Shown in pieces: positions 5,031 to 35,400 of a DNA stretch of 64,000 nt. A program made the translations under genes and the position numbers. The number at the start of each line of letters is the position of its first letter. Position 1 is the first letter of the stretch. Origin of the DNA: Eledone cirrhosa (taxonomy: Eukaryota). The stretch is taken from positions 172,236,001 through 172,300,000 of the forward strand of contig OZ024743.1 in NCBI GenBank assembly GCA_964016885.1. The letters are read 5' to 3'. The notes beneath the pieces were generated by a model. That model did no database searches. It saw only the letters and a list, made by a program, of their open reading frames with translations, and was not told the DNA's origin.

Positions 5031-8000
5031 GGGAAGAAGACGCACGAGGTGACGGAGGTCATGAAATCGCTCCCGTAAGTTTTGAATTTTTAACATATTT
5101 AAACCATTTGTGAAATAACAACTCTTAGCACAAATGCTACGTAAAGCACCCGGCTTGAGCCCCAAAAAATTCGGACCCAAAATATATTGTTATAAGGCTC
5201 AAATATTCAAATATTCAACTTTGTATTGTACACTGTATATCCAAAAAAAAAAAAATGGCTATAAATGGAAGAAGAACCCCTCCCCTCCTCTCCTCTGGCT
5301 ACACTATATAGGACAGCTAAACTCACCAACACCAGAAACTAGATACACCACCCACCCCATCATCTGTGTACACTAAACACAACAGCCAGATAACGACACA
5401 TTTTCACCTTCACCGCCACCGCTCACTACGGCCATCATTACCACCACTATCCCATCACCGCCGCCACCACCCCTTGACTCCGCTACAGCACCATCACTAC
5501 AGTAATACGGTCACATCACCGCCACCACTGCCTCGGTATCGACATCACCACCACCACTGTCTCAGTATCGCTAACGCCGCCAGTCTCCCACTTCCCTGCT
5601 GGTTGCTACTTCCACATTATAGAATTCCTACTACTACCAAAGAGGAAGGCATCAAAATATATAGATAGACCCAAAAGAAAAAAGAAAAAACAAACAACAA
5701 AACCAAAGCAGCACAACGAGAAAAACAAACAGAGAAAAACGAAAACAAAAAAAAGAAACCCCAAAAACGTAAAGAAAATAAGAATGAAGAGAGAAGCAGG
5801 CGGACGGACAGAGAAGAGGGGGGAAAAAGTAAAACTTAAAAAACTAAAACTAAGTCAGACATTCGAACACTACATTACAATGAAACTTATGCTTATTCAT
5901 TTCTGGGGCCCTTTCTGCCTGTGTGTTTGTTTGTTTATGTGTGTTCGTATACAGCGTGGTGATAATGCCACACAAGGGCCAAGTGGGATGGCGGATCCAC
6001 AGATGCTATGTAAACATACATTCGCCAATCCTCGATAAGAGTGTTTAAATATCGAACATAAACAGTTCGAATAACGGTGAAATGGAGACTAGAACGTCAT
6101 GTGACAGACTCTCACCCAACAGGTGCCCCCTGGCTCAGCAGCAGGAACCTGACTGTCAACCAAATACTGCTGATGTTGGAGGAAGGAGAAGAAGGAAAGG
6201 GGCCAGAACCAACTGGACGAAAGAATTGAATAGAACTGTTATGCAATGCTACCTGAAAAGTAACCCCAAGGAGAGGGGCTACAGGAGACGGATGCATAAC
6301 ATCTGGAACGAGATTGGTTTATTTAAATTAGATGAACAAAAATTGGCCGGGCAGGCTCGGGTAATAAGAACTAATGGGTGGATAAGCGAGCTGGAACTGG
6401 AGGAACTGAGCAGAGAGAATGGCTTGGAGATGGCGGGTGTAGTATGCCAGACAAGCGAGCCGGTGGGAAATGAAGGTGAGGAGGTCCTGAGAACGGAGGA
6501 ACCACCCGAAGCAGACAATGATCTGAGTACTGAGATAAATAATACCTGGAACAGAGATACGGCCACTGAGGAGATGAATGCTGACGGGCTAGGACAAGAT
6601 TCGGTTGACATCCTAAATTTAGTGGTAGATGAATTGAACAATGATAGTGGGAGACCTATGAACCTAAGATTTGTAGACAGGAAAAAGTTAAAAGAAACAA
6701 CAGCTAAGGTAAACAAAGTCATCCCATACCTTGAGGCGAGGAGCCTTCACCAGTGCAACAATATCCTCAGAGCAACAGCAAATACGGTGAGGAAACTACT
6801 TGGTATAAAAGCGAGAGGAAACAACAGACAAGAAAGAGCAGAGCCGTGGTGGAAGAAGCGACTGAGTGGGCAAATCGGGGAAATGAGAAATGACATAGGA
6901 AAGCTTGAGTCACTATTGAATGGGACACTAAAAAACATAGGCACTAAAAATAGACTGGAAATAAAATACAAAACTAGGAGTAAAAAGTTAAATATTATCA
7001 TAGAGGAATTGAAGCAACGCATTGTAGCAAAGAGTGCAAAAATCAGGCGATACGAGAACAGAGTCAGTCAGTATAAACAGAACCGTATGTTCGACAACAA
7101 CCAGAAGATGCTGTTTGGACAGCTTGAGGGCAAAGAAAGAGGCAACGACTTGATCCCTGGGGCGGAGCAAACTAAAACATTCTGGAGAGGAATATGGGAG
7201 CAGGATGTTAGACACAATGCCCAGGCAGGGTGGATTGAGACAGTACAGAGGGAGATCGGTGAGCAGGCACAGCAACAGACTGATTTGAGTATCACAGTTG
7301 AAACTCTTAAGGGGCAAGCCAAAAAACTAACCAACTGGAAATCACCAGGCCCAGATGGTGTGCAGGGGTATTGGATTAAACATCTAACATCCCTCCACCC
7401 GAAGCTGACGGCCATGTTCAATGACTGCTTGGTGTCGGGTGAGGTGCCAGAGTGGTTGACAAAAGGTACCACAGTTCTGATAATGAAAGACCGAATCAAG
7501 GGTAATGATGCTACCAACTATAGACCTATCACATGTCTGCCCGTAATGTGGAAACTGTTGACGAGCATTGTGTCTGAGGAAATCTACCATCACCTCCACA
7601 CAAACAACTTGTTACCGGACGAACAGAAAGGATGCCGAAAGAAGTCACGTGGTACAAAGGACCAGTTGCTTATTGATAAGATGGTAATGGGGAATTGCAG
7701 GAGGAGACACACTGATCTTGCCATGGGATGGATAGACTACAGAAAGGCATTTGACATGGTGCCTCATTCCTGGATCACCAAAAGCCTGGAGATCTTCAGG
7801 GTGGCAGATAACATCAGACAGTTGCTAGGCAGGAGTATGGGGCCCTGGGAGACAGAGTTGACATCAACTGGAGTATCCTTGGGAAGCGTGAAGATCAAGA
7901 GAGGTATCTTCCAGGGAGATAGCCTGTCCCCTCTGTTGTTTGTCCTTGCCCTGATGCCCTTGACCATTATGCTGCGAAAAGTGAGAGCAGGATACAAGTT

Positions 8001-9560
8001 GGGAAGGGGAGAGCTTACCATCAATCACCTCCTCTTCATGGACGATCTTAAGCTCTTCGGGAAAAGTGAGAAGGAGTTGGATGTGCTTGTTGACACTGTC
8101 CGTATTTTCAGCAGTGATATATGTATGCAGTTTGGTATTGGTAAATGTGGAGTCATTGTGATGAAGAGGGGTAGGTTGAGCAGAAGTAACGGGATCCAGA
8201 TACCAACAGGTGAGATGATAAAGGAAATTGACTCTGAGGAAGGATACAAGTATTTGGGCGTTCTGGAGGCTGATGGCATAAAGAACAAAAAAATGAAGGA
8301 ATTGTTAAGAACTGAATACATTCGGAGAGTAAGGAGCGTATTGAAGTCACATCTGAACAGCAGAAATGCCATAAGCGCAGTAAATTCCCGAGCTGTGTCT
8401 ATTATTAGGTACAGTGCGGGAATTCTGAGATGGAATGTTGCTGAACAGAAAGAAATGGATAGGAAGACTAGGAAGCTATTGACTATCTACAACATGTTCC
8501 ACAAGAGGAGTGATGTCGATAGACTCTACCTAAGGAGATATGAGGGTGGAAGAGGTCTTATCAGCATAGAGGACGGTGTTCAGATGGAGAAAAACAACCT
8601 ATACAAATACGTGACCTATAGTAAGGAGCCAATGCTCAGAGCTGTACTGAAGGAGGGGACAGTAGGCCAGGGGATGTCCAGGGAGGAAATAACATCTAGG
8701 AGGAAGAGAAGCCTTAAGGGAAAACCCCTTCATAGTACCTTCTTTGAGAAAACTGAATTTAGAGATCCACAGACATGGAACTGGTTGAGAAGAGGAGACC
8801 TCAAAAAGGCTACAGAAGGAATGCTAATGGCTGCGCAGGAGCAGGCCCTCAAAACGAAGTGGTTGAAGCACCATATCTACAAGGAGGAGGCCAGCCCACT
8901 GTGCAGGATCTGTGGAGAGAGAGAGGAGACTGTGGCTCACATTGTGTCCGAGTGTAAACACCTAGCCCAGACCCACTATAAGGGCTGGAGACACGATGTG
9001 ATGGGCTGGGTGATCCACTGGCACCTGTGCAAAGTAAACAATCTACCACATTCTGAGAAATGGTATGAGCATAGGCCAGAGGCGGTGATGGAGAACAATC
9101 AGGTGAAGGTGCTGTGGGATTTTAGGATACAGACGGACAAAAAACTGGAACACAATAGACCTGACCTGGTGGTTGTGGACAAAGAAAAAAGATCGTGCCT
9201 GATTGTGGATGTGGCCTGCCCGTTCGACACGAGAGTGCAAGAGAAGGAGAGGGAGAAAATTAACCGATACCAGGACCTAAAGTGGGGGGTGAAAAGGATT
9301 TGGAATTGCCATGAAGTCAAAGTGATCCCGATTGTCATAGGCGCACTGGGGACTATCTCCAAAAGTTTCCAGGGATGGTTAAAGAAAATCGGCCCCTTCA
9401 CGCTTTTTGGAACGCTTCAAAAGGCATGCTTGCTTGGAACAGCAAGAACCCTCCGATACGTCCTGAATATCTGAAGCTACAGGTAGTGGCTTGATATTCA
9501 ATCCAACGGACTTTCCAGTTAACCAACATCAATGACTGAGATTCAAGGAATAACAATAAC
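5031..9560 (+). mobile_element. Full-length R4/Dong-clade retrotransposon, family A copy 1
   Basis: ~1.05-kb 5' leader, single ORF and ~75-nt 3' UTR, bounded by (TAA)n on both sides. Near-identical to 21573-26100. Confidence 0.93.
6082..9474 (+). CDS. R4/Dong-type polyprotein: N-terminal domain, reverse transcriptase, CCHC zinc knuckle, restriction-like (PD..D) endonuclease; 1130 aa, uninterrupted
   Basis: Motifs KSPGPDG, NYRPITCL, IDYRKAFD, GIFQGDSLSPLLF, LFMDDLKL, YKYLG, EGGRGL, CRIC..ETVAHIVSEC, RHD, RPDLVVVD..IVDVA and KEREKINRY. Confidence 0.95.
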   Translation: METRTSCDRLSPNRCPLAQQQEPDCQPNTADVGGRRRRKGARTNWTKELNRTVMQCYLKSNPKERGYRRRMHNIWNEIGLFKLDEQKLAGQARVIRTNGWISELELEELSRENGLEMAGVVCQTSEPVGNEGEEVLRTEEPPEADNDLSTEINNTWNRDTATEEMNADGLGQDSVDILNLVVDELNNDSGRPMNLRFVDRKKLKETTAKVNKVIPYLEARSLHQCNNILRATANTVRKLLGIKARGNNRQERAEPWWKKRLSGQIGEMRNDIGKLESLLNGTLKNIGTKNRLEIKYKTRSKKLNIIIEELKQRIVAKSAKIRRYENRVSQYKQNRMFDNNQKMLFGQLEGKERGNDLIPGAEQTKTFWRGIWEQDVRHNAQAGWIETVQREIGEQAQQQTDLSITVETLKGQAKKLTNWKSPGPDGVQGYWIKHLTSLHPKLTAMFNDCLVSGEVPEWLTKGTTVLIMKDRIKGNDATNYRPITCLPVMWKLLTSIVSEEIYHHLHTNNLLPDEQKGCRKKSRGTKDQLLIDKMVMGNCRRRHTDLAMGWIDYRKAFDMVPHSWITKSLEIFRVADNIRQLLGRSMGPWETELTSTGVSLGSVKIKRGIFQGDSLSPLLFVLALMPLTIMLRKVRAGYKLGRGELTINHLLFMDDLKLFGKSEKELDVLVDTVRIFSSDICMQFGIGKCGVIVMKRGRLSRSNGIQIPTGEMIKEIDSEEGYKYLGVLEADGIKNKKMKELLRTEYIRRVRSVLKSHLNSRNAISAVNSRAVSIIRYSAGILRWNVAEQKEMDRKTRKLLTIYNMFHKRSDVDRLYLRRYEGGRGLISIEDGVQMEKNNLYKYVTYSKEPMLRAVLKEGTVGQGMSREEITSRRKRSLKGKPLHSTFFEKTEFRDPQTWNWLRRGDLKKATEGMLMAAQEQALKTKWLKHHIYKEEASPLCRICGEREETVAHIVSECKHLAQTHYKGWRHDVMGWVIHWHLCKVNNLPHSEKWYEHRPEAVMENNQVKVLWDFRIQTDKKLEHNRPDLVVVDKEKRSCLIVDVACPFDTRVQEKEREKINRYQDLKWGVKRIWNCHEVKVIPIVIGALGTISKSFQGWLKKIGPFTLFGTLQKACLLGTARTLRYVLNI

Positions 9561-9632
<72 letters not shown>
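9548..9632 (+). repeat. (TAA)n tract
   Basis: AATAAC x2 followed by an AAT run. Confidence 0.97.
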
Positions 9633-9633
<1 letters not shown>

Positions 9634-9635
<2 letters not shown>

Positions 9636-10216
9636 GGAAGAAGACGCACGAGGTGGTAGAAGGTCATGAAATCGCTCCCGTAAATTTTGAATTTTTAACA
9701 TATTTAAATCATTTGTGAAATAACAACTCTTAGTACAAATGTTACGTAAAGCATCCGGCTTGACCCCCAAAAAAATTCGGACCCAAAATATATTGGCTCA
9801 AATATTCAAATATTCAACTACATCATTACTACAACTATCCAATCACCGCCGCCACCACTCCTTCATTGCTACCACCGCTACAACACCATCACTACAGTAA
9901 TACGATCACATCACCACCACCACTGTCTCAGTATCGCTACCGCCGCTATTGTCTCCCACTGCTTCCTGCTAGTTGCTGCTAGAACAGCACTGCCACCACA
10001 TTATAGAATTCCTACTAAAAAAGAGGAAGGCATCAAAATATATAGATAGACTCAAAAGAAAAAACAAAAATCAAAACCAAAGCAGCACAGCAACAACAAC
10101 AAAAAAAAAAGAAAAACAAACAGAGAAAAACAAAAACAAAAAAAAACGTAAAGAAAATAAGAATGAAGAGAGAAACAAGCGGACGGACAGAGAAGAGAAG
10201 GGAAAAACTAAGTCAG
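9634..10216 (+). mobile_element. Family-A 5' leader only (internally deleted; ORF absent)
   Basis: Starts GGGAAGAAGACGCACGAGG..ATGAAATCGCTCCCGTAA like 5031. Ends at AACTAAGTCAG, where unrelated sequence begins. Confidence 0.85.
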
Positions 10217-10219
10217 CAC

Positions 10220-10555
10220 AACCTCTGCAGGAATTTTACCTACTTTTCAATCTCTTGGTCCATTTTGGGCCAGTATACATAACTTCTCATAAGAGCTTTT
10301 ACTCTTGAAATTCCCGGATGACTAATGTGAAATCCTTTTAATATTCGCATTTGTAGTGTGACGGAAATTACTACTCTTTGTGTATACATCAGTACATTGT
10401 CAAAAATTGAGTACGAGTTCGAATCTGGGTTGTGTTGTGCAAATGACATTTTTCTATGTATTTTTTCTGCTCTCAGTAATCTTTTCATTTTCATAATAAA
10501 ATCATCTTCTGCTTTTAATTTAAACGCTACAGGGACTGGATTAGCAAATTAGTTA
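10220..10555 (-). pseudogene. Ty3/gypsy-type pol fragment (integrase zinc-binding region)
   Basis: Translation RVVISVTLQMRILKGFHISHPGISRVKALMRSYVYWPKMDQEIEK matches the H-x3-HPG..K...RSYVYWP motif. Confidence 0.8.
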
Positions 10556-10559
10556 ATCA

Positions 10560-12255: not shown

Positions 12256-12267
12256 TGATTTGAAGTA

Positions 12268-12460: not shown

Positions 12461-12464
12461 ATGA

Positions 12465-13445: not shown

Positions 13446-13499
13446 TTAATTACAGAATCGCCATTATTATTTTCAAAATGTATTCCCATTTATTCCGCA

Positions 13500-19130: not shown

Positions 19131-21497
19131 AAGACAAAATACAAAACTTTTGGATAAATGCCTTCACAGAGTCTCGTGAGCTGCTAGCCCAACTTTACAA
19201 TGAAATGGTTAAGGAGCCAGAAAAGATACCATCATGGCTAATTACGGCATTACATTCCTACTTCCGAAGAATGATGAGACAAACAATCCCAAAACTTACA
19301 AACCGATAACTTGCTTGACCACAATGTATAAAATGTTAACATCAGTCCTAACTGAATATACGTATAATCACCTGATAACAAATGATCTATTTCCCAATGA
19401 GCAGGAAGGGTGTAAACGAGGCTCATATGGCTGTAAAGATCAGCTTTTGGTTAACAAAATGATACTGGAAGATTGCCATAATAGACACAAAAATCTATTC
19501 AATTGCTTGGATAGATTACAAAAAAGCATTCGAGAGTTTGCCACACAGTTGGATTGAAAAATGTAAAGAGAAGATTTTCAAAATATCTCCCGTTGTCAGG
19601 AGGTTCCTGTCATTCAGTATGAAGACATGGAAAACGATACGCCTTTTGAATAGTGAAACAAAATCACTGGAAGCTGGGGAAGTTAATATTTATTGTGGAA
19701 TTTTTCAGGGTGACTCTTTATCACCGCTTTTATTCTGCATCGCACTTATACCATTAATTAAAATGCTCAATGAAACAAAACTTGGATATAAAGTCAATGA
19801 CATAACCATTAATCACTTGTTCTACTTGGATGAACTGAAACTATTTGCAAAATATGATGAGCAATTGCAAGGGATATTATCCACTGTGGAGCAGTTCAGT
19901 GATGACATTAAAATGGAGTTTGGACTAGATAAATGCGCCGAAGCAACGTTCACCAGAGGAAAGCTGCTGAAAAGTTCAGAGGTTAATCTTGATCGGGGGA
20001 ATGTGATAAGAGAACTTGATCAAGAGGAAACTTACAAATATCTAGGTGTTTGTGAAGGAGACGGAATCAAGCTCTCGACAATGAGGGAAAGGATAAGGAA
20101 GGAATGTTACCGCAGAGAAAGAGCAATCGTAAGAACGAAATTGAATGTAAGAAACAGTGTAGATGCCATAAACACGCTTGCCATACCAGTAGTAACCTAC
20201 AGTTACAATGACATCAACTGGTCAAACGCAGAGATCCGTAGGCTCGATACAAAAATTAGAAAATTCTTAACCATGCACAGAATGCATCACCCTAAGGCAG
20301 ATAGAATATATTTCCCTAGGAAAGAAGGAGGACGTGGGTTAATCGAGTTAAATATTGTGTTGAAAACTGCAACAATTGGATTATCTACATATCTAAGGGA
20401 ATCACATGATTGGATGATCAAACTCGTTTTGAAACACGAAAGCATCAAAAGATAATACTCCATTACAAAAGATGCACAAAGATACAGTAATGGACTACAA
20501 ATTTCAGAAATTCCATTTACTGCTGAAATGAAAAACACAGAAAAAGCAAAGCAGGTAAAAGTAACTGGAAAGAAAGAACTGCTACAGAAACTGGCTAAGA
20601 AATGGCAAGAAAAGCCTCTGTATGGAAAATACCCAGAAAGAGCTAACAATCCTGATGTTGACAACACATTAACCCATCAGTGGTTGGCATCCTCTGGACT
20701 GAAATCGGAGACTGAAAGACTGATTATATCATTATATCAGCACAATATCAGTGTCTGCCAACAAAAAGATCATGAAGCCAACATAATAAAAAATGGATGC
20801 GATCCATTATGCCGTATATGTAAAAAACCAACCAGAGACTATTGATCATATAATTCAGTCCTATAGCTCCAACCGAATACCTAAACAGGTACGACAGAAT
20901 TACACAATACATACATTGGATAATGTGTAAGCATTTTGACCTGCCATATCAAAAGAATTGGTGGGAGCATCAACCACCTCCCATACTTGAAAAAGATCAC
21001 ATCTCAATCTTGTGGAACTTTAGCATCCAAACAGACCGAAAAATAGATGCAAATAGACCTGATATAATACTGAAGGACTTGAGGGTATGCCTGCTAATTG
21101 ATATGTCCGTTCCAATAGACAAGAATGTATCTATATAAACATTTGAAAAATAAGGACCTGGAGATAGAAATTGGAAAAATGTGGAAATTGAGAACTAAAA
21201 CAATACCAGTGGTTGTAGGCGCTCTATGAATGATACCTAAGGGGTCTAATGATTACTTATCACAAATCCCAGGAAACGCGCGTATAGGAGAAATACAAAA
21301 GATAGTACTAATGGGAACTGCCCATATACTAAGGAAGATTCTGTCAATATAAGTACATCACAAGTCTAAACACCTAAAGATGCATGTGTGTGTATTTATG
21401 TTCGTTCTTGAACATGGCGGACCTTGTTGTCTCTTGAGGTCACTGGTTGTGACTTGGTGTTAACTCGTATGAACATAAAGCAAGATAAATGCAACTA
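19131..21497 (+). pseudogene. 5'-truncated R4/Dong family B copy
   Basis: Near-identical to 34897-37266, with frameshifts and stops and YLDE in place of YMDD. Confidence 0.9.
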
Positions 21498-21573: not shown

Positions 21574-24500
21574 GGGAAGAAGACGCACGAGGTGACGGAG
21601 GTCATGAAATCGCTCCCGTAAGTTCTGAATTTTTAACATATTTAAACCATTTGTGAAATAACAACTCTTAGTACAAATGCTACGTAAAGCACCCGGCTTG
21701 AGCCCCAAAAAATTCGGACCCAAAATATATTGTTATAAGGCTCAAATATTCAAATATTCAACTTTGTATTGTACACTGTATATCCAAAAAATAAAATGAC
21801 TATAAATGGAAGAAGAAGAACCCCCCCCCCCCTCCTCTCCTCTGGCTACACTATATAGGACAGCTAAACTCACCAACACCAGAAACTAGATACATCACCC
21901 ACCCCATCATCTGTGTACACTAAACACAACAGCCAGATAACGACATTTTCACCTCACCGCCACCGCTCACTACGGCCATCATTACCACCACTATCCCATC
22001 ACCGCAGCCACCACCCCTTCACTCCTTCACTACTGCCACCGCTACAGCACCATCACTACAGTAATAAGGGCATATCACCGCCACCACTGCCTCGGTATCG
22101 ACATCACCACCACCACTGTCTCAGTATCGCTAACGCCGCAGTCTCCCACTTCTCCCTGCTGGCTGCTACTCCCACATAATAGAATTCCTACTACTAACAA
22201 AGAGGAAGGCATCAAAATATATAGATAGACTCAAAAGAAAAAAGAAAAAAGAAAAAACAAAACCAAAGCAGCACAGCAACAACAGCAAAAACGAGAAAAA
22301 CAAACAGAGAAAAACAAAAACAAAAAAAGAAACCCCAAAAACGTAAAGAAAATAAGAATGAAGAGAGAGGCAGGCGGACGGACAGAGAAGAGGGGGGGAA
22401 AAGTAAAACTTAAAAAACAAAAACTAAGTCAGACATTCGAACACTACATTACAATGAAACTTATGCTTATTCATTTTTGGGGCCCTTTCTGCCTGTGTAT
22501 TTGTTTGTTTATGTGTGTTCGTATACAGCGTGGCGATAATGCCACACAAGGGCCAAGTGGGATGGCGGATCCACAGATGGCTATGTAACTATACATTCGC
22601 CAATCCTCGATAAGAGTGTTTAAATATCGAACATAAACAGTTCGAATAACGGTGAAATGGAGACTAGAACGTCATGTGACAGACTCTCACCCAACAGGTG
22701 CCCCCTGGCTCAGCAGCAGGAACCTGACTGTCAACCAAATACTGCTGATGTTGAAGGAAGAAGAAGAAGGAAAGGGGCCAGAACCAACTGGACGAAAGAA
22801 TTGAATAGAACTGTTATGCAATGCTACCTGAAAAGTAACCCCAAGGAGAGGGGCTACAGGAGACGGATGCATAACATCTGGAACGAGATTGGTTTATTTA
22901 AATTAGATGAACAAAAATTGGCCGGGCAGGCTCGGGTAATAAGAACTAATGGGTGGATAAGCGAGCTGGAACTGGAGGAACTGAGCAGAGAGAATGGCTT
23001 GGAGATGGCGGGTGTAGTATGCCAGACAAGCGAGCCGGTGGGAAATGAAGGTGGGGAGGTCCTGAGAACGGAGGAACCACCCGAAGCAGACAATGATCTG
23101 AATACTGAGATAAATAATACCTGGAACAGAGATACGGCCACTGAGGAGATGAATGCTGACGGGCTAGGACAAGATTCGGTTGACATCCTAAATTTAGTGG
23201 TAGATGAATTGAGCAATGATAGTGGGAGACCTATGAACCTAAGATTTGTAGACAGGAAAAAGTTAAAAGAAACAACAGCTAAGGTAAACAAAGTCATCCC
23301 ATACCTTGAGGCGAGGAGCCTTCACCAGTGCAACAATATCCTCAAAGCAACAGCAAATACGGTGAGGAAACTACTTGGTATAAAAGCGAGAGGAAACAAC
23401 AGACAAGAAAGAGCAGAGCCGTGGTGGAAGAAGCGACTGAGTGGGCAAATCGGGGAAATGAGAAATGACATAGGAAAGCTTGAGTCACTACTGAATGGGA
23501 CACTAAAAAACATAGGCACTAAAAATAGACTGGAAATAAAATACAAAACTAGGAGTAAAAAGCTAAATATTATCATAGAGGAATTGAAGCAACGCATTGT
23601 AGCAAAGAGTGCAAAAATCAGGCGATACGAGAACAGAGTCAGTCAGTATAAACAGAACCGCATGTTCGACAACAACCAGAAGATGCTGTTTGGACAGCTT
23701 GAGGGGAAAGAAAGAGGCAACGACTTGATCCCTGGGGCGGAACAAACTAAAACATTCTGGAGAGGAATATGGGAGCAGGATGTTAGACACAATGCCCAGG
23801 CAGGGTGGATTGAGACAGTACAGAGGGAGATCGGTGAGCAGGCACGACAACAGACTGATTTGAGTATCACAGTTGAAACTCTTAAGGGGCAAGCCAAAAA
23901 ACTAACCAACTGGAAATCACCAGGCCCAGATGGTGTGCAGGGGTATTGGATTAAACATTTAACATCCCTCCACCCGAAGCTGACGGCCATGTTCAATGAC
24001 TGCTTGGTGTCGGGTGAGGTGCCAGAGTGGTTGACAAAAGGTACCACAGTTCTGATAATGAAAGACCGAATCAAGGGTAATGATGCTACCAACTATAGAC
24101 CTATCACATGTCTGCCCGTAATGTGGAAACTGTTGACGAGCATTGTGTCTGAGGAAATCTACCATCACCTCCACACAAACAACTTGTTACCGGACGAACA
24201 GAAAGGATGCCGAAAGAAGTCACGTGGTACAAAGGACCAGTTGCTTATTGATAAGATGGTAATGGGGAATTGCAGGAGGAGACACACTGATCTTGCCATG
24301 GGATGGATAGACTACAGAAAGGCATTTGACATGGTGCCTCATTCCTGGATCACCAAAAGCCTGGAGATCTTCAGGGTGGCGGATAACATCAGACAGTTGC
24401 TAGGCAGGAGTATGGGGTCCTGGGAGACAGAGCTGACATCAACTGGAGTATCCTTGGGAAGCGTGAAGATCAAGAGAGGTATCTTCCAGGGAGATAGCCT

Positions 24501-26100
24501 GTCCCCTCTGTTGTTTGTCCTTGCCCTGATGCCCTTGACCATTATGCTGCGAAAAGTGAGAGCAGGATACAAGTTGGAAAGGGGAGAGCTTACCATCAAT
24601 CACCTCCTCTTCATGGACGATCTTAAGCTCTTCGGGAAAAGTGAGAAGGAGTTGGATGTGCTATGTATGCAGTTTGGTATTGGTAAATGTGGAGTCATTG
24701 TGATGAAGAGAGGTAGGTTGAGCAGAAGTAACGGGATCCAGATACCAACAGGTGAGATGATAAAGGAAATTGACTCTGAGGAAGGATACAAGTATTTGGG
24801 CGTTCTGGAGGCTGATGGCATAAAGAACAAAAAAATGAAGGAATTGTTAAGAACTGAATACATTCGGAGAGTAAGGAGCGTATTGAAGTCACATCTGAAC
24901 AGCAGAAATGCCATAAGCGCAGTAAATTCCCGAGCTGTGTCTATTATTAGGTACAGTGCGGGAATTCTGAGATGGAATGTTGCTGAACAAAAAGAAATGG
25001 ATAGGAAGACTAGGAAACTATTGACTATCTACAACATGTTCCACATGAGGAGTGATGTCGATAGACTCTACCTAAGGAGATCTGAGGGTGGAAGTGGTCT
25101 TATCAGCATAGAGGACTGTGTTCGGATGGAGAAAAACAACCTATACAAATACGTGACCTATAGTAAGGAGCCAATGCTCAGAACTGTACTGAAGGAGGGG
25201 ACAGTAGGCCAGGGGATGTCCAAGGAGGAAATAACATCAAGGAGGAAGAGCAGCCTTAAGGGAAACTCCCTTCATAGTACCTTCTTTGAGAAAACTGAAT
25301 TTAGAGATCCACAGACATGGAACTGGTTGAGAAGAGGAGACCTCAAAAAGGCTACAGAAGGAATGCTAATGGCTGCGCAGGAGCAGGTCCTCAAAACGAA
25401 GTGGTTGAAGCACCATATCTACAAGGAGGAGGCTAGCCCACTGTGCAGGATCTGTGGAGAGAGAGAGGAGACTGTGGCTCACATTGTGTCCGAGTGTAAA
25501 CACCTAGCCCAGACCCACTATAAGGGCTGGAGACACGATGTGATGGGCAGGGTGATTCACTGGCACCTGTGTAAAGTAAACAATCTACCACATTCTGAGA
25601 AATGGTATGAGCATAGGCCAGAGGCGGTGATGGAGAACAATCAGGTGAAGGTGCTGTGGGATTTTAGGATACAGACGGACAAAAAACTGGAACACAATAG
25701 ACCTGACCTGGTGGTTGTGGACAAAGAAAAAAGATCGTGCCTGATTGTGGATGTGGCCTGCCCGTTCGACACGAGAGTGCAAGAGAAGGAGAGGGAGAAA
25801 ATTAACCGATACCAGGACCTAAAGTGGGAGGTGAAAAGGATTTGGAACTGCCATGAAGTCAAAGTGATCCCGATTGTCATAGGCGCACTGGGGACTATCT
25901 CCAAAAGTTTCCAGGGATGGTTAAAGAAAATCGGCCCCTTCACGCTTTTTGGAACGCTTCAAAAAGCATGCTTGCTTGGAACAGCAAGAACCCTCCGATA
26001 CGTCCTGAATATCTGAGGCTGCAGGTAGTGGCTTGATATTCAATCCAACGGACTTTCCAGTTAACCAACATCAATGACTGAGATTCAAGGAATAACAATA
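21573..26100 (+). mobile_element. Full-length R4/Dong family A copy 2
   Basis: Leader, ORF and 3' UTR as in copy 1. Confidence 0.93.
22657..26016 (+). CDS. R4/Dong-type RT-endonuclease polyprotein, 1119 aa, with an in-frame 11-aa deletion in the RT
   Basis: Same motifs as 6082-9474 but lacks VDTVRIFSSDI after ELDVL, so it is probably defective. Confidence 0.9.
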   Translation: METRTSCDRLSPNRCPLAQQQEPDCQPNTADVEGRRRRKGARTNWTKELNRTVMQCYLKSNPKERGYRRRMHNIWNEIGLFKLDEQKLAGQARVIRTNGWISELELEELSRENGLEMAGVVCQTSEPVGNEGGEVLRTEEPPEADNDLNTEINNTWNRDTATEEMNADGLGQDSVDILNLVVDELSNDSGRPMNLRFVDRKKLKETTAKVNKVIPYLEARSLHQCNNILKATANTVRKLLGIKARGNNRQERAEPWWKKRLSGQIGEMRNDIGKLESLLNGTLKNIGTKNRLEIKYKTRSKKLNIIIEELKQRIVAKSAKIRRYENRVSQYKQNRMFDNNQKMLFGQLEGKERGNDLIPGAEQTKTFWRGIWEQDVRHNAQAGWIETVQREIGEQARQQTDLSITVETLKGQAKKLTNWKSPGPDGVQGYWIKHLTSLHPKLTAMFNDCLVSGEVPEWLTKGTTVLIMKDRIKGNDATNYRPITCLPVMWKLLTSIVSEEIYHHLHTNNLLPDEQKGCRKKSRGTKDQLLIDKMVMGNCRRRHTDLAMGWIDYRKAFDMVPHSWITKSLEIFRVADNIRQLLGRSMGSWETELTSTGVSLGSVKIKRGIFQGDSLSPLLFVLALMPLTIMLRKVRAGYKLERGELTINHLLFMDDLKLFGKSEKELDVLCMQFGIGKCGVIVMKRGRLSRSNGIQIPTGEMIKEIDSEEGYKYLGVLEADGIKNKKMKELLRTEYIRRVRSVLKSHLNSRNAISAVNSRAVSIIRYSAGILRWNVAEQKEMDRKTRKLLTIYNMFHMRSDVDRLYLRRSEGGSGLISIEDCVRMEKNNLYKYVTYSKEPMLRTVLKEGTVGQGMSKEEITSRRKSSLKGNSLHSTFFEKTEFRDPQTWNWLRRGDLKKATEGMLMAAQEQVLKTKWLKHHIYKEEASPLCRICGEREETVAHIVSECKHLAQTHYKGWRHDVMGRVIHWHLCKVNNLPHSEKWYEHRPEAVMENNQVKVLWDFRIQTDKKLEHNRPDLVVVDKEKRSCLIVDVACPFDTRVQEKEREKINRYQDLKWEVKRIWNCHEVKVIPIVIGALGTISKSFQGWLKKIGPFTLFGTLQKACLLGTARTLRYVLNI

Positions 26101-26118: not shown

Positions 26119-26147
<29 letters not shown>

Positions 26148-26272
26148 AAGAAGAAGAAGAAGAAGAAGAAGAAGAAGAAGAAGAAGAAGAAGAAGAAGAA
26201 GAAGAAGAAGAAGAAGAAGAAGAAGAAGAAGAAGAAGAAGAAGAAGAAGAAGAAGAAGAAGAAGAAGAAGAA
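26119..26272 (+). repeat. (AGA)n microsatellite, about 50 units
   Basis: Pure AGA run following a short TAA tail. Confidence 0.97.
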
Positions 26273-26537
26273 GGAAAGAATTGAATAGAACTGTTATGCA
26301 ATGTTACCTGAAAAGTAACCCCAAGGAGAGGGGCTATAGGAGACGGATGCATAATATCTGGAAAGAGATTGGTCTATTTAAATTAGATGAACAAAAATTA
26401 GCCGGGCAGGCTCGGGTAATAAGAACTAATGGGTGGATAAGCGAGCTGGAACTGGAGGAACTGAGCAGAGAGATTAGCTTGGAGATGGAGGGTGGAGTAT
26501 GCCAGGCAAAAGAGCCAGTGGGAAATGAAGGTGAAGA
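26273..26537 (+). pseudogene. Internal fragment of the family A ORF N-terminus (copy-3-type variants)
   Basis: KELNRTVMQCY..WKEIG..REISLEMEGGVCQA matches 27970-28230. Confidence 0.9.
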
Positions 26538-26540
26538 TAT

Positions 26541-29500
26541 ACGCACGAGGTAGTAGAAGGTCATGAAATCGCTCCCGTAAATTTTGAATTTTTAACATAT
26601 TTAAATCATTTGTGAAATAACAACTCTTAGTACAAATGCTACGTAAAGCATCCGGCTTGAGCCCCAAAAAAATACGGATCCAAAATATATTGTTATAAGG
26701 CTCAAATATTCAAATATTCAACTTTGTATTGTACATTGTATATTCAAAAATGAAAATGGCTATAAATGGAAGAAGAAGAACCCCCCCCCCCTCCTCTGTC
26801 TACACTATATAGAACAGCCAAACAACACCAATCTCACCAACACCAGAAACTAGATACACCACCTACCCCATCACCTCTCTGTGTACACTAAACACAACAG
26901 CCAGATGACGGCAATTTCACCACCACCACAACCAATCTCAACATAATAATGATAATAATAAATACTATTATTATTGTCCCAAGTTTTATCAAAATGTTTA
27001 ATTCAAACACATATACGCAACTAACCCCATAGATTCACCGAACGGACATCAGTAACGACAACGCCGCCCATCCATCATTACTACCACTATCCCATCACCG
27101 CCGCCACCACTCCTTCATTGCTACCACCGCTACAACACCATCGCTACAGTAATACGACCACATCACCACCACCACTTCCATCATTACTACCACTATCCCA
27201 TCACCTCCGCCACCACTCCTTCATTGCTACCACCGCTACAACACCATCACTACAGTAATACGATCACATCACCACCACCACTGCCTCAGTATCGACATCA
27301 CCACCACCACTGTCTCAGTATCGCTACCGCCGATATTCTCTCCCATTGCTTCCTGCTAGTTGCTGCCACCACATTATAGAATTCCTACTAAAAAAGAGGA
27401 AGGCATCAAAATATATAGATAGACTCAAAAGAAAAAACAAAAAACAAGCATGAAAGCCAAAGCAGCACAGCAACAACAGCAAAAAAAGAGAAAAACAAAC
27501 AGAGAAAAACAAAAATAAAAAAAAACGTAAATAAAATAAGAATGAAGAGAGAAACAAGCGGACGGACAGAGAATAGAAGGGAAAAACTAAGTCAGACATT
27601 CGAACACTACATTACAATGAAACTTATGCTTATTCATTTTTGGGTTTTTTCTGCCTGTTTGTTTGTTTATTTGTGTTCGTCTACAGCGTGGTGATAATGC
27701 CACACAAGAGCCAAGTGGAGCGGCACAACCACCGGAGACGGTGAATCCACAGATGGTTATGTAACCATACATTCGCCAATCCTCGATAAGAGTGTTTAAA
27801 TATCGAACCTAAACAGTTCGAATAACGGTGAAATGGAGACTAGAACGTCATGTGACAGACTCTCACCCAACAGGTGCTCCATGGCTCAGCAGCAGGAACC
27901 TGGCTGTCAACCAAATACTGCTGGTGTCGGAGGAAGAAGAAGAAGGAAAGGGACCAGAACCAACTGGACGAAAGAATTGAATAGAACTGTTATGCAATGT
28001 TACCTAAAAAGTAACCCCAAGGAGAGGGGCTATAGGAGACGGATGCATAACATCTGGAAAGAGATTGGTCTATTTAAATTAGATGAACAAAAATTGGCCG
28101 GGCAGGCTCGGGTAATAAGAACTAATGGGTGGATCAGCGACCTGGAACTGGAGGAACTGAGCAGAGAGATTAGCTTGGAGATGGAGGGTGGAGTATGCCA
28201 GGCAAACGAGCCAGTGGGAAATGAAGGGGAAGAGGTCGAGAGAACGGAGGAACCACCCGAAGCAGACAATGATCTGAATACTGAGATAAATAATACCTGG
28301 AACAGAGATACGGCCACTGAGGAGATGAATGCTGACGGGCTAGGACAAGATTCGGTTGACATCCTAAATTTAGTGGTAGATGAATTGAACAATGATAGTG
28401 GGAGACCTATGAACCTAAGATTTGTAGACAGGAAAAAGTTAAAAGAAACAACAGCTAAGGTAAACAAAGTCATCCTATACCTTGAGGCGAGAAGCCTTCA
28501 CCAGTACAACAATATCCTCAAAGCAACAGCAAATACGGTGAGAAAACTACTTGGTATAAAAGCGAGGGGAAACAACAGACAAGAAAGAGCAGAGCCTTGG
28601 TGGAAGAAACGACTGAGTGGTCAAATCAGGGAAATGAGAAATGACATTGTAAAGCTTGAGTCACTACTGACTGGGACACTAAAAAACATAGGCACTAAAA
28701 ATAGACTGGAAATAAAGTACAAAACTAGGAGGAAAAAGCTAAATATTATCATAGAGGAACTGAAGCAACACATTGTAGCAAAGAGTGCAAAAATCAGGCG
28801 ATACGAGAACAGAGTCAGTCAGTATAAACAGAACCGCATGTTCGACAACAACCAGAAGATGCTGTTTGGACAGCTTGAGGGGAAAGAAAGAAGCAACGAC
28901 TTGATCCCTGAGGCGGAACAAACTAAAACATTCTGGAGAGGAATATGGGAGCAGGATGTTAGACATAATGACCAGGCAGGGTGGATTGAGACAGTACAGA
29001 GGGAGATCGGTGAGCAGGCACACCAACAAACTGATTTGAGTATCACAGTTGAAACTCTTAAGGGGCAGGCCAAAAAACTAACCAACTGGAGATCAGCAGG
29101 CCCAGATGGTGTGCAGGGGTATTGGATTAAAAATATAACATCCCTCCACCCGAAACTGACAACCATGTTCAATGACTGCTTGATGTCAGGTGAGGTACCA
29201 GAGTGGTTGACAAAAGGTACCACAGTTCTGATAATGAAAGACCTAATCAAGGGTAATGATGTTACCAACTATAGACCTATCACATGTCTGTCCGTAATGT
29301 GGAAACTGTTGACGAGCATTGTGTCTGAGGAAATCTACCATCACCTCCACACAAACAACTTGTTACCGGACGAACAGAAAGGATGCCGAAAGAAGTCACG
29401 TGGTACAAAGGACCAGTTACTTATTGATAAGATGGTAATGGGGAATTGCAGGAGGAGACACACTGATCTTGCCATGGGATGGATAGACTACAGAAAGGCA

Positions 29501-31303
29501 TTTGACATGGTGCCTCATTCTTGGATCACCAAAAGCCTGGAGATCTTGAAGGTGGCAGATAACATCAGACAGTTGCTGGGCAAGAGTATGAGGTCCTGGG
29601 AAACAGAGTTGACATCAACTGGAGAATCCTTGGGAAGCGTGAAGATCAAGAGAGGTATCTTCCAGGGAGATAGTCTGTCACCTCTGTTGTTTGTCCTTGC
29701 CCTGATGCCCCTGACCAGTGTACTGCGAAAAGTGAGAGCAGGATACGGGTTGGGAAAGGGAGGGCTTACCATCAATCACCTCCTCTTCATGGACGATCAT
29801 AAGCTCTTCGGGAAGAGTGAGAAGGAGTTGGATGTGCTTGTTCACACTGTCCGTATTTTTCAGCAGTGATATATGTATACAGTTTGGTATTAGTAAGTGT
29901 GGAGTCATTGTGATGAGGAGGGGTAGGTTGAGCAGAAGTAACGGAATCCAGATACCAACAGGTGAGATGATAAAGGAAATTGATTCTGAGGAAGGATACA
30001 AGTATTTGGGCGTTCTGGAGGCTGATGGCGTAAAGAACAAAAAAATGAAGGAATTGTTAAGAACTGAATACATTCGGAGAGTAAGGATCGAATTGAAGTC
30101 ACATCTGAACAGCAGAAATGCCATAAGCGCAGTAAATTCCCGAGCTGTGTCTATTATTAGGTACAGTGCGGGAATTCTGAGATGGAATGTTGCTGAACAA
30201 AAAGAAATGGATAGGAAGACTAGGAAGCTATTGACTATCTACAACATGTTCCACAAGAGGAGTGATGTCGATAGACTCTACCTAAGGAGATCTGAGGGTG
30301 GAAGAGGTCTTATCAGCATAGACGACTGTGTTCAGATGGAGAAAAACAACCTACACAAATACGTGACTGATAGTAAGGAGCCAATGCTCAATATTGTACT
30401 TAAGGAGAGAGAGGACAATAGACCAGGGGATGTCCAACGAGGAAATAACAACAAGGAGAAAGAGCAGCCTTCATGAAAAATCCCTTCATAGTACCTTCTT
30501 TGAGAAAACTGAATTCAGATATCCACAGACATGGAACTGGTTGAAAAGAGGAGACCTTAAAAAGGCTACAGAAGGAATGCTAATGGGTGCGCAGGAGCAG
30601 GCCCTCAAAATGAAGTGGTTGAAACACCATATTTACAAGGAGGAGGCTAGCCCACTGTGCAGGATCTGTGGAGAGAGAGAGGAGACTGTGGCTCACATTG
30701 TATCCGAGTGTAAACACCTAGCCCAGACCCACTATAAGGGCTGGAGACATGATGTGATGGGCAGGGTGATCCACTGGAACCTGTGCAAAGTAAACAATGT
30801 ACCACATTCTGAGAAATGGCATGAACATAAGCCAGAGGCGGTGATGGAGAACGATCAGGTGAAGGTGCTGCGGGATTTTAGGATACAGACGGACAAGAAA
30901 CTGGAACACAATAGACCTGACCTTGTGGTTGTGGACGAAGAAAAAAGATCGTGTCTGATTGTGGATGTGGCCTGCCCATTCGACACGACAGTGCAAGAGA
31001 AGGAGAGGGAGAAAATTAACCGATACCAAAACTTAAAGTGGGAGGTAAAATGGATTTGGAACTGCCATGAAGTCAAAGTGATCCCGATTATCATAGGCGC
31101 ACTGGGGACTATCTCAAAAAGTTTCCAGAGATGGTTAAAGAAAATTGGCCCCTTCACGCTTTTTGGAACGCTTCAAAAGGCATGCTTGCTGGGAACAGCA
31201 AGAACCCTCCGATACGTCCTGAATATCTGAGGCTGCAGGTAGTGGCTTGATATTCATTCCAACGGAGTTTCCAGTTAACTAACATCAATGACTGAGATTC
31301 AAG

Positions 31304-31305
<2 letters not shown>
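26541..31305 (+). pseudogene. Full-length R4/Dong family A copy 3 (frameshifted; ORF pieces 27833-29869, 29817-30476, 30394-31230)
   Basis: Longer leader with an internal tandem duplication. Frameshifts near 29860 and 30410. Confidence 0.92.
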
Positions 31306-31371
<66 letters not shown>

Positions 31372-31560
31372 GGTTTCCAGGGATGGTTAAAGAAAATCGG
31401 CCCCTTCACGCTTTTTGGAACGCTTCAAAAGGCATGCTTGCTTGGAACAGCAAGAACCCTCCGATACGTCCTGAATATCTGAGGCTGCAGGTAGTGGCTT
31501 GATATTCAATCCAACGGACTTTCCAGTTAACCAACATCAATGACTGAGATTCAAGGAATA
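31372..31560 (+). mobile_element. Extremely 5'-truncated family A copy (last ~190 bp) between TAA tracts
   Basis: Matches 25907-26095. Flanked by (TAA)n at 31305-31371 and 31557-31597. Confidence 0.9.
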
Positions 31561-31568
31561 ACAATAAC

Positions 31569-31597
<29 letters not shown>

Positions 31598-31601
<4 letters not shown>

Positions 31602-32354
31602 AAATTACCAAGCCAACATAAAAAAAAATGGGTGCAGCCCATTATTCCGTGTATGCAAAAAACAACCAGAGACCATTGACCATATAATTTCAATGTGCTG
31701 TCCTATAGCTCCAACCGAATACCTAAACAGGCATGACAGAGCTGCACAATACATACATTGGATAATGTGTAAGCATTTTGACCTGCCCCATCAAAAGAAT
31801 TGGTGGGAGCATCAGCCACCTCCCATACTTGAAAAAGATCACATCTCAATCTTGTGGAACTTTAGCATCCAAACAGACCGAAAAATAGATGCAAACAGAC
31901 CTGATATAATATTGAAATACTTTCAAAAGAGGGTATGCCTGCTAATTGATATGTCTGTTCCAATAGACAAGAATGTATCTATAAAAACATTTGAAAAATT
32001 GAGCAAGTATAAGGACCTGGAGATAGAAATTGGAAAAATGTGGAAATTGAGAACTAAAACAATACCAGAAGTTGTAGGCCCTCTGGGAATGATACCTAAG
32101 GGGTCTAACGATTACTTATCGCAAATCCCATGAAACCCGCGTATAGGAGAAATACAAAAGATAGTACTAATGGGAACTGCCCATATACTAAGGAAGATTC
32201 TGTCAATATAAGTACATCACAAGTCTAAACACTAAAGATGCATGTGTGAATATGTATGTTCTTTCTTGAACATGGCGGACCTTGTTGTCTCTTGAGGTCA
32301 CTGGTTGTGACTTGGTGATAACTCGTATGAACATAAATCAAGATAAATGCAACT

Positions 32355-32355
<1 letters not shown>
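31598..32355 (+). pseudogene. 5'-truncated R4/Dong family B copy
   Basis: Begins at KNYQANI. Contains RHD, RPDII, LIDMSVP and KLSKY, then the 3' UTR and (TAA)n at 32356-32412. Confidence 0.9.
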
Positions 32356-32411
<56 letters not shown>

Positions 32412-32415
<4 letters not shown>

Positions 32416-35400
32416 AATCGCTCCCGTAAGCTTTTGATTTGTAACATATTTAAATCAATTGTGAAATAACAATTCTTAGTACAAATGTTGCATAAACCAC
32501 CAAATGAAGCCCCATAAAATTTTGGATCCATATTATATTGTTATATCGCTCAAATATTCAATTTTGTATTATATATTTTGTATTCAAAAAAAGAAAATGG
32601 TTATAAATGGAAGAAAACACCCTCTGTCTACACTATATAGAACAGCCAAATAACAGCAATTTCACCAACACCAGAAACTTGATACGCCACCTATCCCATC
32701 ACACTAAATATAACAGCCAGATAACGGCAATTTCACCACCACCACCACCATCAATCCAGGCATGATAATAATAATTACTATTATTATTGTCTCAAATTTT
32801 AACAAAATGTTTAATTCCAATTTTACGGGAATATGTCAACACAATATATATTAAACATACGAACACAAACTCATAGATACTACATATCACAAAACCCAGT
32901 AACCACAACGCCACCGCCGCCACCACCCCATCCATCATCTTGCTACAACTATCCCATCGCCGCCGCCACTACTCCTTCATTGCTACCACCACTATTCCCC
33001 TGTTAACTTGAGAGAGAAAGGGGAAGGTGGCGGTATCACTAGACAAGGAAGAGGCTAGCAAAAGATATAAATAGATTGACTTAGTGACCTGGCCACCGGC
33101 CAAACGTCAACATCAACAACTATGGGACTGCTGGCTCAGCCCTTCCTCACCAACAATATAAAAAGCCCCGGCACCACCACCGACATAGCCAACAACAATA
33201 ACAGGCAACTACAGCAAAAAGTATATTATATTATTGTAATGCACTGGGTGATTGCTGGCCTGGAATGGAGACAATTATTAATAATTTCATTCTTAAGCCA
33301 CGCAATGCTCACATTAAGGAACCACTCATGATAATAACAATTTAAAAAAACAACAAAAAGAAAACCCCGTGACCAAGAAATACCGGGATGGCGGCCGGCG
33401 GGGAATAGCCGTGCCTCTAGGGTAGAACGACCCCTCTAGTCTTGGTTGACACTCGTTCTAGAAGTGGTAACACGAAATGATTACCCCTTGGCGGATAAGG
33501 ATAAAACGCGACAAAATAAAGTAAATGTCTAATGATAAAATCTCATACCGGATCGGCCGTCACCAGGGTAAAAAAGGGCCGCGTCCCTCAGAGAGGAACC
33601 AGACTGGGGTCGAAAAATCAGCTAATGGTTCAAACCTTCCCATCACTTCGGAGCTGGAGACCTCCCATAACCGGAATACTCCTACTGTTGGCCCTCCATG
33701 CTCACCACCAAGAAATCCAAAGAAAAAGAGAGAAAAATGGTCAAGAGAAGATAATAAAGAAGTCCTTGAGGCTTTCTACACTGCCATGTACTACCCATCA
33801 AATACATCGAATACAGAACAGACATATATCAACTGGAAAAAGAAACATCCCGAAAACAGAGGCTATATTGTCAGTAACAAACTAGCCAATATACGAAGAA
33901 ATATTGTAAGAAAAAAGTTACTAACTGATATAGAAATTGATCAGATCAAGCTATTACAAAATCAGCGAAGGGAAAATGAAACATGTGTCAGTGAAAACGA
34001 GGTAAACTGTAACAATTCGAACCCCAGGGTTGGGGCGGAATCACTGGCAACAGAACAAATTAAAGAAAGAATCGAAAAAGGAAAATAATGAGATCGTAAA
34101 TGATAAAGAAATGAATGAGAATGAACTTGCCAACTTGAAGGATGAAATTATGATCGAATGGATGAAAATGAAAGAATCTGACATGGGGCAACGAGACACA
34201 CTCCCTAAGATCCAGAACTCCAAACAGAACCAAAAGATAATACACAAGACTAACATAATTCTCAAAAACATTATCATCACAAACAAACTAAACATTACTG
34301 ATTTAAATCATCTCTATTATGCATCGGCTCAAGTCACCACTCACTTATGTGGAGTGAAGATGAAAAAATAAAGGAATTCCCACAAGAAATCTACTTGGCA
34401 AGAGAACATCAATCGCCAAATAAACCTTCTCCGATCTGACATAGAAATTTTAACAAACTATAAAGTAGGTGAACATGTTAAACAAACTAAACTTAGAAAA
34501 TTGAAAAAGAAGTACAGTATAAAATCAACATGTGACATAGACATGCTGATAGAAATAATCAAGCAAAAAGTGTCAGCCAAAGCTGCTCGTATAAGGCGCT
34601 TTGAAAAACGATCTAGATTCTATAAGGACAATAATATGTTCAAAAACAACCAAAGAAACTTCTACAGAAAAATTGGTAAGTCAACAATAACTGCTAAATC
34701 AATACCACCCAAGGAGGAAGTGCAAGAATTCTGGGAAAAGATCTGGGCCGAAGAAAAAGTTCATAACATACATGCCCCATGGATAGACAGACAAATGAAA
34801 GATACAGCTCACCTTGAGGAACAAATATGGGAAAATATAACAGTTGAACAGTTGCGCTTGGCTCTAAGAAAAACCAGCAAATGGAAATCCCAGGAAGAGA
34901 CAAAATACAAAACTTTTGGATAAATGCCTTCACAGAGTCTCATGAGCTGTTAGCCCACTCTTTACAATGAAATAGTTAAGGAGCCAGAAAAGATACCATC
35001 ATGGCTAGTTAACGGCATTACATTCCTGCTTCCGAAGAATGATGAGACAAACAATCCCAAAAATTACAGACCGATAACTTGCTTAACCACAATGTATAAA
35101 ATTTTAACATCAGTGCTAACTGAATACACATATGACCACCTGATAACAAATGACATATTTCCCATTGAGCAGAAAGGGTGTAAACGAGGCTCATATGGCT
35201 GTAAGGATCAGCTTCTGGTTACCAAAATGATACTGGAAGATTGTCATAATAGACACAAAAATCTATCGATAGCTTGGATAGATTATAAAAAGGCATTCGA
35301 TAGTTTGCCACACAGTTGGATTGAAAAATGTTTATAGATTTTCAAAATATCCCCCGTTGTCAGGAGGTTTTTGTCATTCAGTATGAAGACATGGAAAACG

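What the first reader, a model, noticed from the sequence alone, without database searches (positions are those of the whole stretch)
5031..32995. One ~580-bp 5' leader is shared by two protein-divergent R4/Dong families
Family A (ORF starts METRTSC) and family B (ORF starts MSNDKIS) have clearly different proteins, pre-AUG regions and 3' UTRs. Yet both begin with the same non-coding block: ATGAAATCGCTCCCGTAA..GTGAAATAACAA.TCTTAG.ACAAATG..TATAAATGGAAGAA..CACTATATAG..CACCAACACCAGAAACT..C/A-rich tract. It occurs at 5061, 9666, 21604 and 26563 in A, and at 32412-32995 in B. The A copy-3 leader resembles B's over an extra segment (26900-27005 vs 32715-32815) that copies 1 and 2 lack. Inference: a portable promoter module, with two TATA-like boxes about 200-250 nt in, was exchanged between co-targeting families. 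It would let (TAA)n-inserting elements transcribe without a host transcription unit, unlike rDNA-inserted R2/R4, which are co-transcribed.
Basis: partly seen in the sequence, partly recalled or inferred. Interest (0 to 1): 0.75.

Follow-up and report, generated by a model that had tools for sequence, protein, structure and literature searches.

The report
Retrotransposons swap a borrowed Tx1 leader
Two distantly related jumping-gene families in this animal genome start with the same front piece, which they have passed back and forth and which likely came from a third, unrelated kind of jumping gene and likely serves as their built-in promoter.

Summary
Observation confirmed and extended. Families A and B (37% protein identity, separate deep clades) share a leader. 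Of 98 sampled leader hits, 94 lead into an A (69) or B (25) ORF, and no B copy with another 5' end was found, so neither refuting case holds. Sharing is by repeated exchange. One A subfamily carries about 700 nt of B's leader in front of A's older leader. A B subfamily carries an A leader with 0 of 341 differences. The leader's first ~230 nt match 5' UTRs of L1/Tx1-type elements that sit in the same TAA tracts, and end at their ORF1 start codon. The oldest R4 copies found carry the most Tx1-like heads. The two-TATA mechanism is not supported: box 1 overlaps that relic ATG, neither box exceeds chance, and copies begin ~230 nt upstream of them. No ribozyme was found at the 5' end, unlike Bombyx Dong. 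Promoter function is inferred, not shown. The 9666 copy is a leader only; 580 bp holds for one A copy. The scan noted both the shared leader and the Tx1 link before on other DNA of this genome.

The parts
5030..9550 (+). Family A element, youngest leader type (Ib), full length, open ORF 6082-9474 (RT, CCHC knuckle, RHD, PD..D endonuclease), between (TAA)n tracts
5030..5420 (+). Shared leader core; begins (A)GGGAAGAAGACGCAC
5066..5288 (+). Tx1-type head within the leader (hit to a profile of Tx1-type 5' ends, E 1.8e-10)
5075..5080 (+). GTAAGT, 5' splice-donor consensus, also present in the Tx1-type heads
5260..5269 (+).
5980..6082 (+). A-specific pre-AUG region with HDV-like fragments (TCCTCG loop, two stems) but no complete ribozyme fold
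9635..10216 (+). Leader-only copy, internally deleted, not followed by an A or B ORF
21574..26092 (+). Family A element, leader type Ib, ORF 22657-26016
26533..31306 (+). Family A element of the older subfamily Ia; keeps the segment (26900-27005) shared with B; ORF broken
32412..37266 (+). Family B element, leader type IIb lacking its first 30 nt; ORF starts 33525, broken
32412..33045 (+). B leader up to CACTAGACAA, the boundary of the ~700-nt block found in the A_IIa subfamily
1..3075 (+). B fragment, cut by the window start, with an internal gap
19132..21496 (+). 5'-truncated B copy
31596..32355 (+). 5'-truncated B copy, directly upstream of the full B
4120..4952 (+). Older 5'-truncated A copy

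Best explanation
Families A and B share a 5' leader that they have exchanged repeatedly; its first ~230 bases likely came from the 5' end of an L1/Tx1-type retrotransposon and likely act as an internal promoter that starts RNA at the element's first base. Shown: sharing in nearly all long copies; leader and ORF trees disagree in both directions; B-to-A capture of ~700 nt (A_IIa = B-type leader + the rest of A's older leader III); A-to-B capture with 0 of 341 differences; colinear likeness to Tx1-type 5' ends up to their ORF1 ATG; no ribozyme fold at the 5' end. Inferred: (a) an early R4 element took a Tx1 5' end plus the start of its ORF1, likely by reverse-transcriptase template switching, because the two clades face opposite ways in the TAA tracts; (b) the head gave promoter activity, replacing Dong's read-through-plus-ribozyme route; (c) later swaps arise when a 5'-incomplete cDNA or copy of one family is joined to the other's leader, by template switching at microhomology, by deletion between tandem neighbours, or by insertion into the leader's own short TAA tract; only hybrids with a whole leader and an intact ORF multiply.
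For: 94 of 98 leader hits lead into A or B. 30 of 30 best B loci carry leader sequence. 25 of 30 B loci from an independent anchor reach into it; the other 5 are cut short at TAA tracts. A and B fall in separate clades, 100/100, each with outside relatives. Leader clade I holds 66 A + 2 B; clade II holds 23 B + 6 A + 2 without ORF. B copies with A leaders nest among young B ORFs. Majority-state distances: B_Ia vs A_Ia leader 0/341, A_IIa vs B_IIa 8/332. Five loci share one A|B junction with AATT microhomology; two other junction forms exist. Older A copies carry leader III (454 hits; 26 of 30 with an A ORF), whose downstream part follows the B block in A_IIa. Leaders align to Tx1-type heads at 126/177 and 123/182 identities; with the search motif removed, 0 of 400 real AT-rich controls reach the score for 3 of 5 heads tested. 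A profile of 19 such heads hits only the five leaders in the window (E 1e-11 to 4e-8) and nothing in the reversed window. Old A copies (69-81% nt to the A ORF) with the profile region covered score 71-117 bits against 32-43 for young leaders. The 5' end is sharp.
Against: No RNA, start-site or reporter data: promoter function is untested. Two of five Tx1-type heads tested did not beat the real-sequence control. Profiles of two other Tx1 families gave weak or no scores. The best-matching head family (T6) is old and decayed: only some of its 20 loci show Tx1 ORF pieces, and the seed locus shows none in 7.7 kb. The old R4 copies were found by searching with a T6-like head, which favours likeness. 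The head tree does not resolve which Tx1 family was the donor. Samples are the first listed hits on one contig or the best 30, not random. The 5'-end count is conditioned on a motif at +30.
Confidence: 0.7

Rival explanations
1. The leader is swapped and Tx1-derived but is not a promoter. The elements are read through from neighbouring DNA or upstream copies, and the leader acts in the RNA (splice donor, stability, translation, 5' joining to the TAA target) or merely hitchhikes.
For: 58 of 98 sampled copies have an A or B 3' end within 280 nt upstream. GTAAGT is kept in 53 of 57 heads from samples not selected on it. Bombyx Dong is processed from a co-transcript (PMC3774820, passages and section 15).
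Against: Read-through needs a way to cut a precise 5' end; no Rfam match, stable fold or strict HDV fold was found. 40 of 98 copies have no such neighbour. Captured 5' UTRs in L1 are promoters (PMC3600994).
Confidence: 0.2
2. One reading: a TATA-driven promoter 200-250 nt inside the leader drives transcription.
For: Both boxes are kept in 89 of 98 copies. 19 of 63 A UTRs carry an internal duplication that includes box 1.
Against: The boxes are not above chance. Box 1 overlaps the relic ATG. Transcripts from there would lose the first ~260 nt, yet copies start at +1.
Confidence: 0.05
3. The leader is native to these R4 elements, kept by selection since A and B split; the Tx1 likeness is convergence of AT-rich promoter sequence or a transfer from R4 to Tx1.
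For: Old A, old B and a third R4 lineage all carry related heads. Likeness to Tx1 heads is only ~70%.
Against: 0/341 and 8/332 differences between families 37% alike in protein cannot be descent. The match is colinear for ~190 nt and ends at an ATG that opens ORF1 in the Tx1-type elements but lies 800+ nt before the R4 ORF.
Confidence: 0.05

Closest known systems
5' UTR recruitment and inter-family recombination in mouse L1 (PMC3600994; abstract and passages seen)
   Same: 5' termini are transferred between simultaneously active families; mosaic families arise; template switching is among the proposed routes.
   Different: There the partners are close relatives within L1. Here they are 37% identical R4-type lineages, swaps go both ways, and the module traces to another clade (APE-type Tx1 into RLE-type R4).
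Dong (Bombyx mori) and R4, R4 clade (PMC3774820 passages and section 15; PMC7998251 passages)
   Same: Single ORF with RT and C-terminal restriction-like endonuclease; (TAA)n target.
   Different: Dong has an active HDV-like ribozyme cutting at its 5' junction. These elements have a 1.0-1.5 kb 5' UTR with a Tx1-type head and no detectable ribozyme at the 5' end.
Trypanosome ingi/L1Tc/RIME/NARTc 77-79 bp 5' signature (recalled, no call)
   Same: Protein-divergent families begin with one shared 5' module.
   Different: That module is short, a promoter-ribozyme, and conserved. This one is 400-700 nt, unstructured, and shared by recent exchange.
Octopus Dong-R4 LINEs (PMC13282606 and PMC9115989; passages seen)
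   Same: Several recently active Dong-R4 families in an animal genome of similar size (5 families, 1129 recent insertions in O. vulgaris).
   Different: The passages seen say nothing on 5' UTRs ('promoter' has 0 occurrences in PMC13282606). That this genome is an octopod is taken from earlier scan notes and was not tested here.

Membership tests
R4/Dong clade | Single ORF with reverse transcriptase, no APE endonuclease | tested here: met
   1130-aa ORF, RVT_1 E 4e-23, no Exo_endo_phos; best solved relatives are R2 proteins
R4/Dong clade | C-terminal CCHC knuckle, RHD and PD..D restriction-like endonuclease | tested here: met
   CRIC..H..EC at 941, RHD at 970, PD..D near 1027 in A; motif definitions recalled
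R4/Dong clade | (TAA)n target | tested here: met
   Flanks of window copies and of most of 98 loci
R4/Dong clade | HDV-like ribozyme at the 5' end (as in B. mori Dong and R4) | tested here: not met
   No Rfam match at E<=10, fold z-scores 0.35 to 2.8, 0 strict descriptor hits in 6 UTR types; cleavage itself not assayed
R4/Dong clade | Phylogenetic placement with named Dong/R4 proteins | tested here: inconclusive
   The 120 listed relatives carry no family names; the tree has no named reference. So 'Dong-like' is firm, strict membership is not shown.
R4/Dong clade | N-terminal Myb/SANT-like domain | not tested
   Described in PMC7998251; no profile comparison run
L1/Tx1 clade (donor heads T1, T3, T4, T5) | ORF1 followed by APE endonuclease and RT on the same strand | tested here: met
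   T1: Exo_endo_phos and RVT_1; T3, T4, T5 match T1 ORF1, EN and RT in order
L1/Tx1 clade (head family T6) | ORF1 followed by APE endonuclease and RT on the same strand | tested here: inconclusive
   Of 20 loci, 2 show ORF1+EN, 1 EN, 1 ORF1+RT piece, 2 RT pieces within ~1.5 kb; the seed locus shows none
Internal promoter of a non-LTR element | Transcription starts at the element's first base | not testable with these tools
   Only the indirect sign of a sharp 5' end
Independent TAA-targeting repeat or SINE | Mostly found without an R4 ORF | tested here: not met
   4 of 98 lack an A or B ORF; two of these are leader pieces joined to an A or B 3' end

The most novel reading that the evidence does not exclude
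A promoter taken across clades from Tx1 freed a ribozyme-dependent R4/Dong lineage from host read-through transcription. It now circulates as a common, continually swapped module among at least three R4 lineages sharing TAA landing sites, with the original ribozyme left as a dead relic just before the AUG.
Probability: 0.35. Interest if true: 0.7.

Novelty: new variant of a known kind. Interest (0 to 1): 0.52.

Why it matters
How site-specific RLE retrotransposons outside rDNA are transcribed is poorly known; the studied ones use read-through and a ribozyme. Here a dated series of copies records a switch of 5' module across clades and repeated swaps between lineages too distant to recombine in their ORFs. 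It gives exact fragments for a reporter or CAGE test, and natural pairs (same ORF, different leader; same leader, different ORF) to ask what a leader does to copy number. It also warns that family consensus libraries hide such mosaics.

Tried and rejected
RNA evidence: no RNA holder listed. Contigs of three runs laid on a B copy covered it in the window's likely own species, but were too sparse in two other organisms to test linkage. Ribozyme at the 5' end: not found. DPE at +28: GGTCAT fits the recalled consensus, but its distance from the first G is 27, 28 or 29 by leader type, so it was not adopted. A B family with its own unrelated leader: an exclusion pattern gave 14 hits; 7 were TAA truncations, 6 leader variants, and 1 was not classified because my script turned it the wrong way. 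My interim idea that the leader is native to A and went only A-to-B was dropped when leader III was found. The window's own Tx1 family (T2) and family T1 are poor donor matches. Two of 100 loci (L157, L187) were dropped because they were fetched on the wrong side. Literature: 9 searches ran; none listed a paper on a leader shared between R4 families or taken from Tx1. Repbase and subscription journals were not searched, and no supplements were read.
Full report
1. What is in the window. Bases 1-37300 are a head-to-tail array of RT-encoding elements on the + strand separated by (TAA)n tracts, with older unrelated remnants between 10217 and 19130. Family A has open ORFs at 6082-9474 and 22657-26016 and a broken copy from 27833; family B has one near-full broken copy at 32412-37266 and three fragments. 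A has RVT_1 and C-terminal CCHC, RHD and PD..D motifs. A and B are 37% identical over 851 aligned residues. With database relatives they fall in two clades, 100/100, each grouping with outside proteins (34 of 120 relatives used in the tree).

2. The observation. The leader aligns at all five places. It is the only long nucleotide match between A and B. The 580-bp figure applies to the 26.5-kb copy; the younger A copies share ~390 + ~65 nt. The 9666 copy has no ORF behind it.

3. A leader 21-mer occurs 1485 times in the 3.0-Gb genome, with 0 control hits. I fetched the first 100 listed places (all on contig C1); 2 were dropped, and of 98, 69 lead into an A ORF, 25 into a B ORF and 4 into neither. 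All 30 best B loci carry leader sequence (these include the window copy and four tandem near-identical copies). So do 29 of 30 best A loci. From an independent B anchor, 25 of 30 loci reach into the shared block and 5 are cut short at TAA tracts. A pattern built to find B copies with another upstream sequence gave 14 hits, none of the 13 classified with a new leader.

4. The exchange was repeated. The leader tree has clade I (66 A, 2 B) and clade II (23 B, 6 A, 2 without ORF), 100/100. B copies with clade I leaders sit among young B ORFs (support within the B tree is low). Majority-state counts: B_Ia vs A_Ia leader 0/341, with their ORFs 1/1515 from young B; A_IIa vs B_IIa leader 8/332; clade I vs II 10-14%. 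Five loci share one A|B junction with AATT microhomology. Two loci show a second form, possibly a deletion of the first, and one a third. Such hybrids were 2 of 25, 3 of 30 and 3 of 30 B copies in three overlapping samples. In the other direction, A_IIa matches B_IIa for ~700 nt to CACTAGACAA. What follows is the downstream part of an older A leader, type III (454 hits at up to 2 mismatches; 26 of 30 with an A ORF, 1 B, 3 none). An old B copy has a type IV leader that resembles II downstream and III in its head. Whether II entered A once or twice is open: A-specific UTR parts differ by 9% between IIa and Ia, like the leader.

5. Origin of the module. This lead came from earlier scan notes and was tested here. 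A leader profile gave a weak hit (E 0.026) to an opposite-strand element that encodes an APE endonuclease and RT. A pattern for elements beginning after (ATT)n found further families with the layout 5' end, CGTAAGTT, AT-rich stretch, AATATTTGGGCC-loop-GGCCCAAATATT palindrome, A-run, ATG. Three of them have ORF1, EN and RT in order. Leaders align colinearly to T6 (126/177) and T5 (123/182), ending at the Tx1 ATG. With the selected motif removed, 0 of 400 AT-rich genomic controls reached the score for L348, L344 and L331; L329 and L332 did not pass. A profile of 19 T6 heads hits exactly the five leaders in the window and nothing in the reversed window. Old A copies and members of a third R4 lineage carry heads with the palindrome largely intact and score far higher, with the caveat that they were found with such a head. 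Leaders I-IV form one clade apart from these. Profiles of T1 and T2 gave weak or no scores, and T6's own status as Tx1 rests on a minority of its loci.

6. How it likely works. 64 of 98 copies begin exactly at AGGGAAGAAGAC and 20 more within 2 substitutions (sample conditioned on a motif at +30). A non-LTR element must carry its promoter inside the RNA or be cut from a longer RNA (PMC3774820, Introduction passage). Bombyx Dong uses a ribozyme at its 5' junction (same paper). Here the 5' end folds no better than shuffles, matches no Rfam family and has no strict HDV fold. An internal promoter acting at +1 is therefore the best inference, and a Tx1 5' UTR is the kind of sequence expected to hold one (own knowledge). 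The TATA-like boxes are too far in, not above chance, and box 1 overlaps the relic ATG. GTAAGT at +46 is kept and may aid transcription; splicing was not shown. Three routes can make hybrids. Template switching fits the microhomology junction. Deletion between tandem neighbours is available, since 58 of 98 copies have a neighbour upstream and 2 of 25 B copies end in an A 3' end. Insertion into the leader's internal TAA run is seen once for a truncated third-family copy (L411) and once for a short repeat (L139). The data do not choose among them.

7. Comparison and verdict. Mouse L1 families recruit and pass on 5' UTRs (PMC3600994), so the process is known. The distance between partners, the two-way traffic and the cross-clade source were not found in nine searches of the held library. 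The scan reported the shared leader and the Tx1 link earlier on other DNA of this genome; those notes are not independent support. Verdict: real, a new variant of a known kind; exchange shown, Tx1 origin well supported, promoter function inferred. Interest 0.52.

Noticed in passing
window 5980-6082; window 33380-33525: Pre-AUG regions of A and B hold HDV-like pieces (TCCTCG or CACTCG loop, P2- and P4-like stems, single-sided changes that keep pairs between subfamilies) but no complete fold; possibly the buried original ribozyme.
   Followed up: partly
19 of 63 A UTRs among L091-L190; many of L031-L060: Internal tandem duplication of the leader from about +150 (about 320 or 690 nt) in young A subfamilies, reminiscent of monomer arrays in mouse L1.
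   Followed up: partly
L152, L158: B 5' part and ORF joined to an A 3' end with no long homology: inter-family chimaeras inside the coding region.
   Followed up: partly
L395, L401, L411: A third R4-like lineage (about 32-50% protein identity to A and B, decayed) behind the same kind of head; in L411 a truncated copy starts at the leader's internal TAA run.
   Followed up: partly
window 26120-26273; many 5' junctions in L091-L190: (GAA)n runs often sit between the TAA tract and the 5' end, whose first bases are GAA-like; origin unexplained.
   Followed up: no
L142, L160: Very short internally deleted copies: 90-320 nt of leader joined to the last few dozen bases of a B or A 3' end, like SIDE elements; single copies in the sample.
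   Followed up: no
L329-L358, L265-L294: Several L1/Tx1-type families begin right after (ATT)n, opposite to the R4 elements; most share a GTAAG and a GGGCC/GGCCC palindrome in a ~210-nt 5' UTR.
   Followed up: partly
window 33285-33340: A stretch of B's UTR resembles, by eye, the reverse of a Tx1-type 3' end seen at window 17728 and in L380.
   Followed up: no
window 10217-10520 (- strand) and 12480-13480 (- strand): By eye, a decayed LTR-retrotransposon integrase-like piece follows the leader-only copy; a further R4-like remnant, 67% to B over 226 nt, lies on the minus strand.
   Followed up: no
L111 5' junction: An A element inserted at a short TAATAA inside another A ORF, so two repeats can serve as target.
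   Followed up: no
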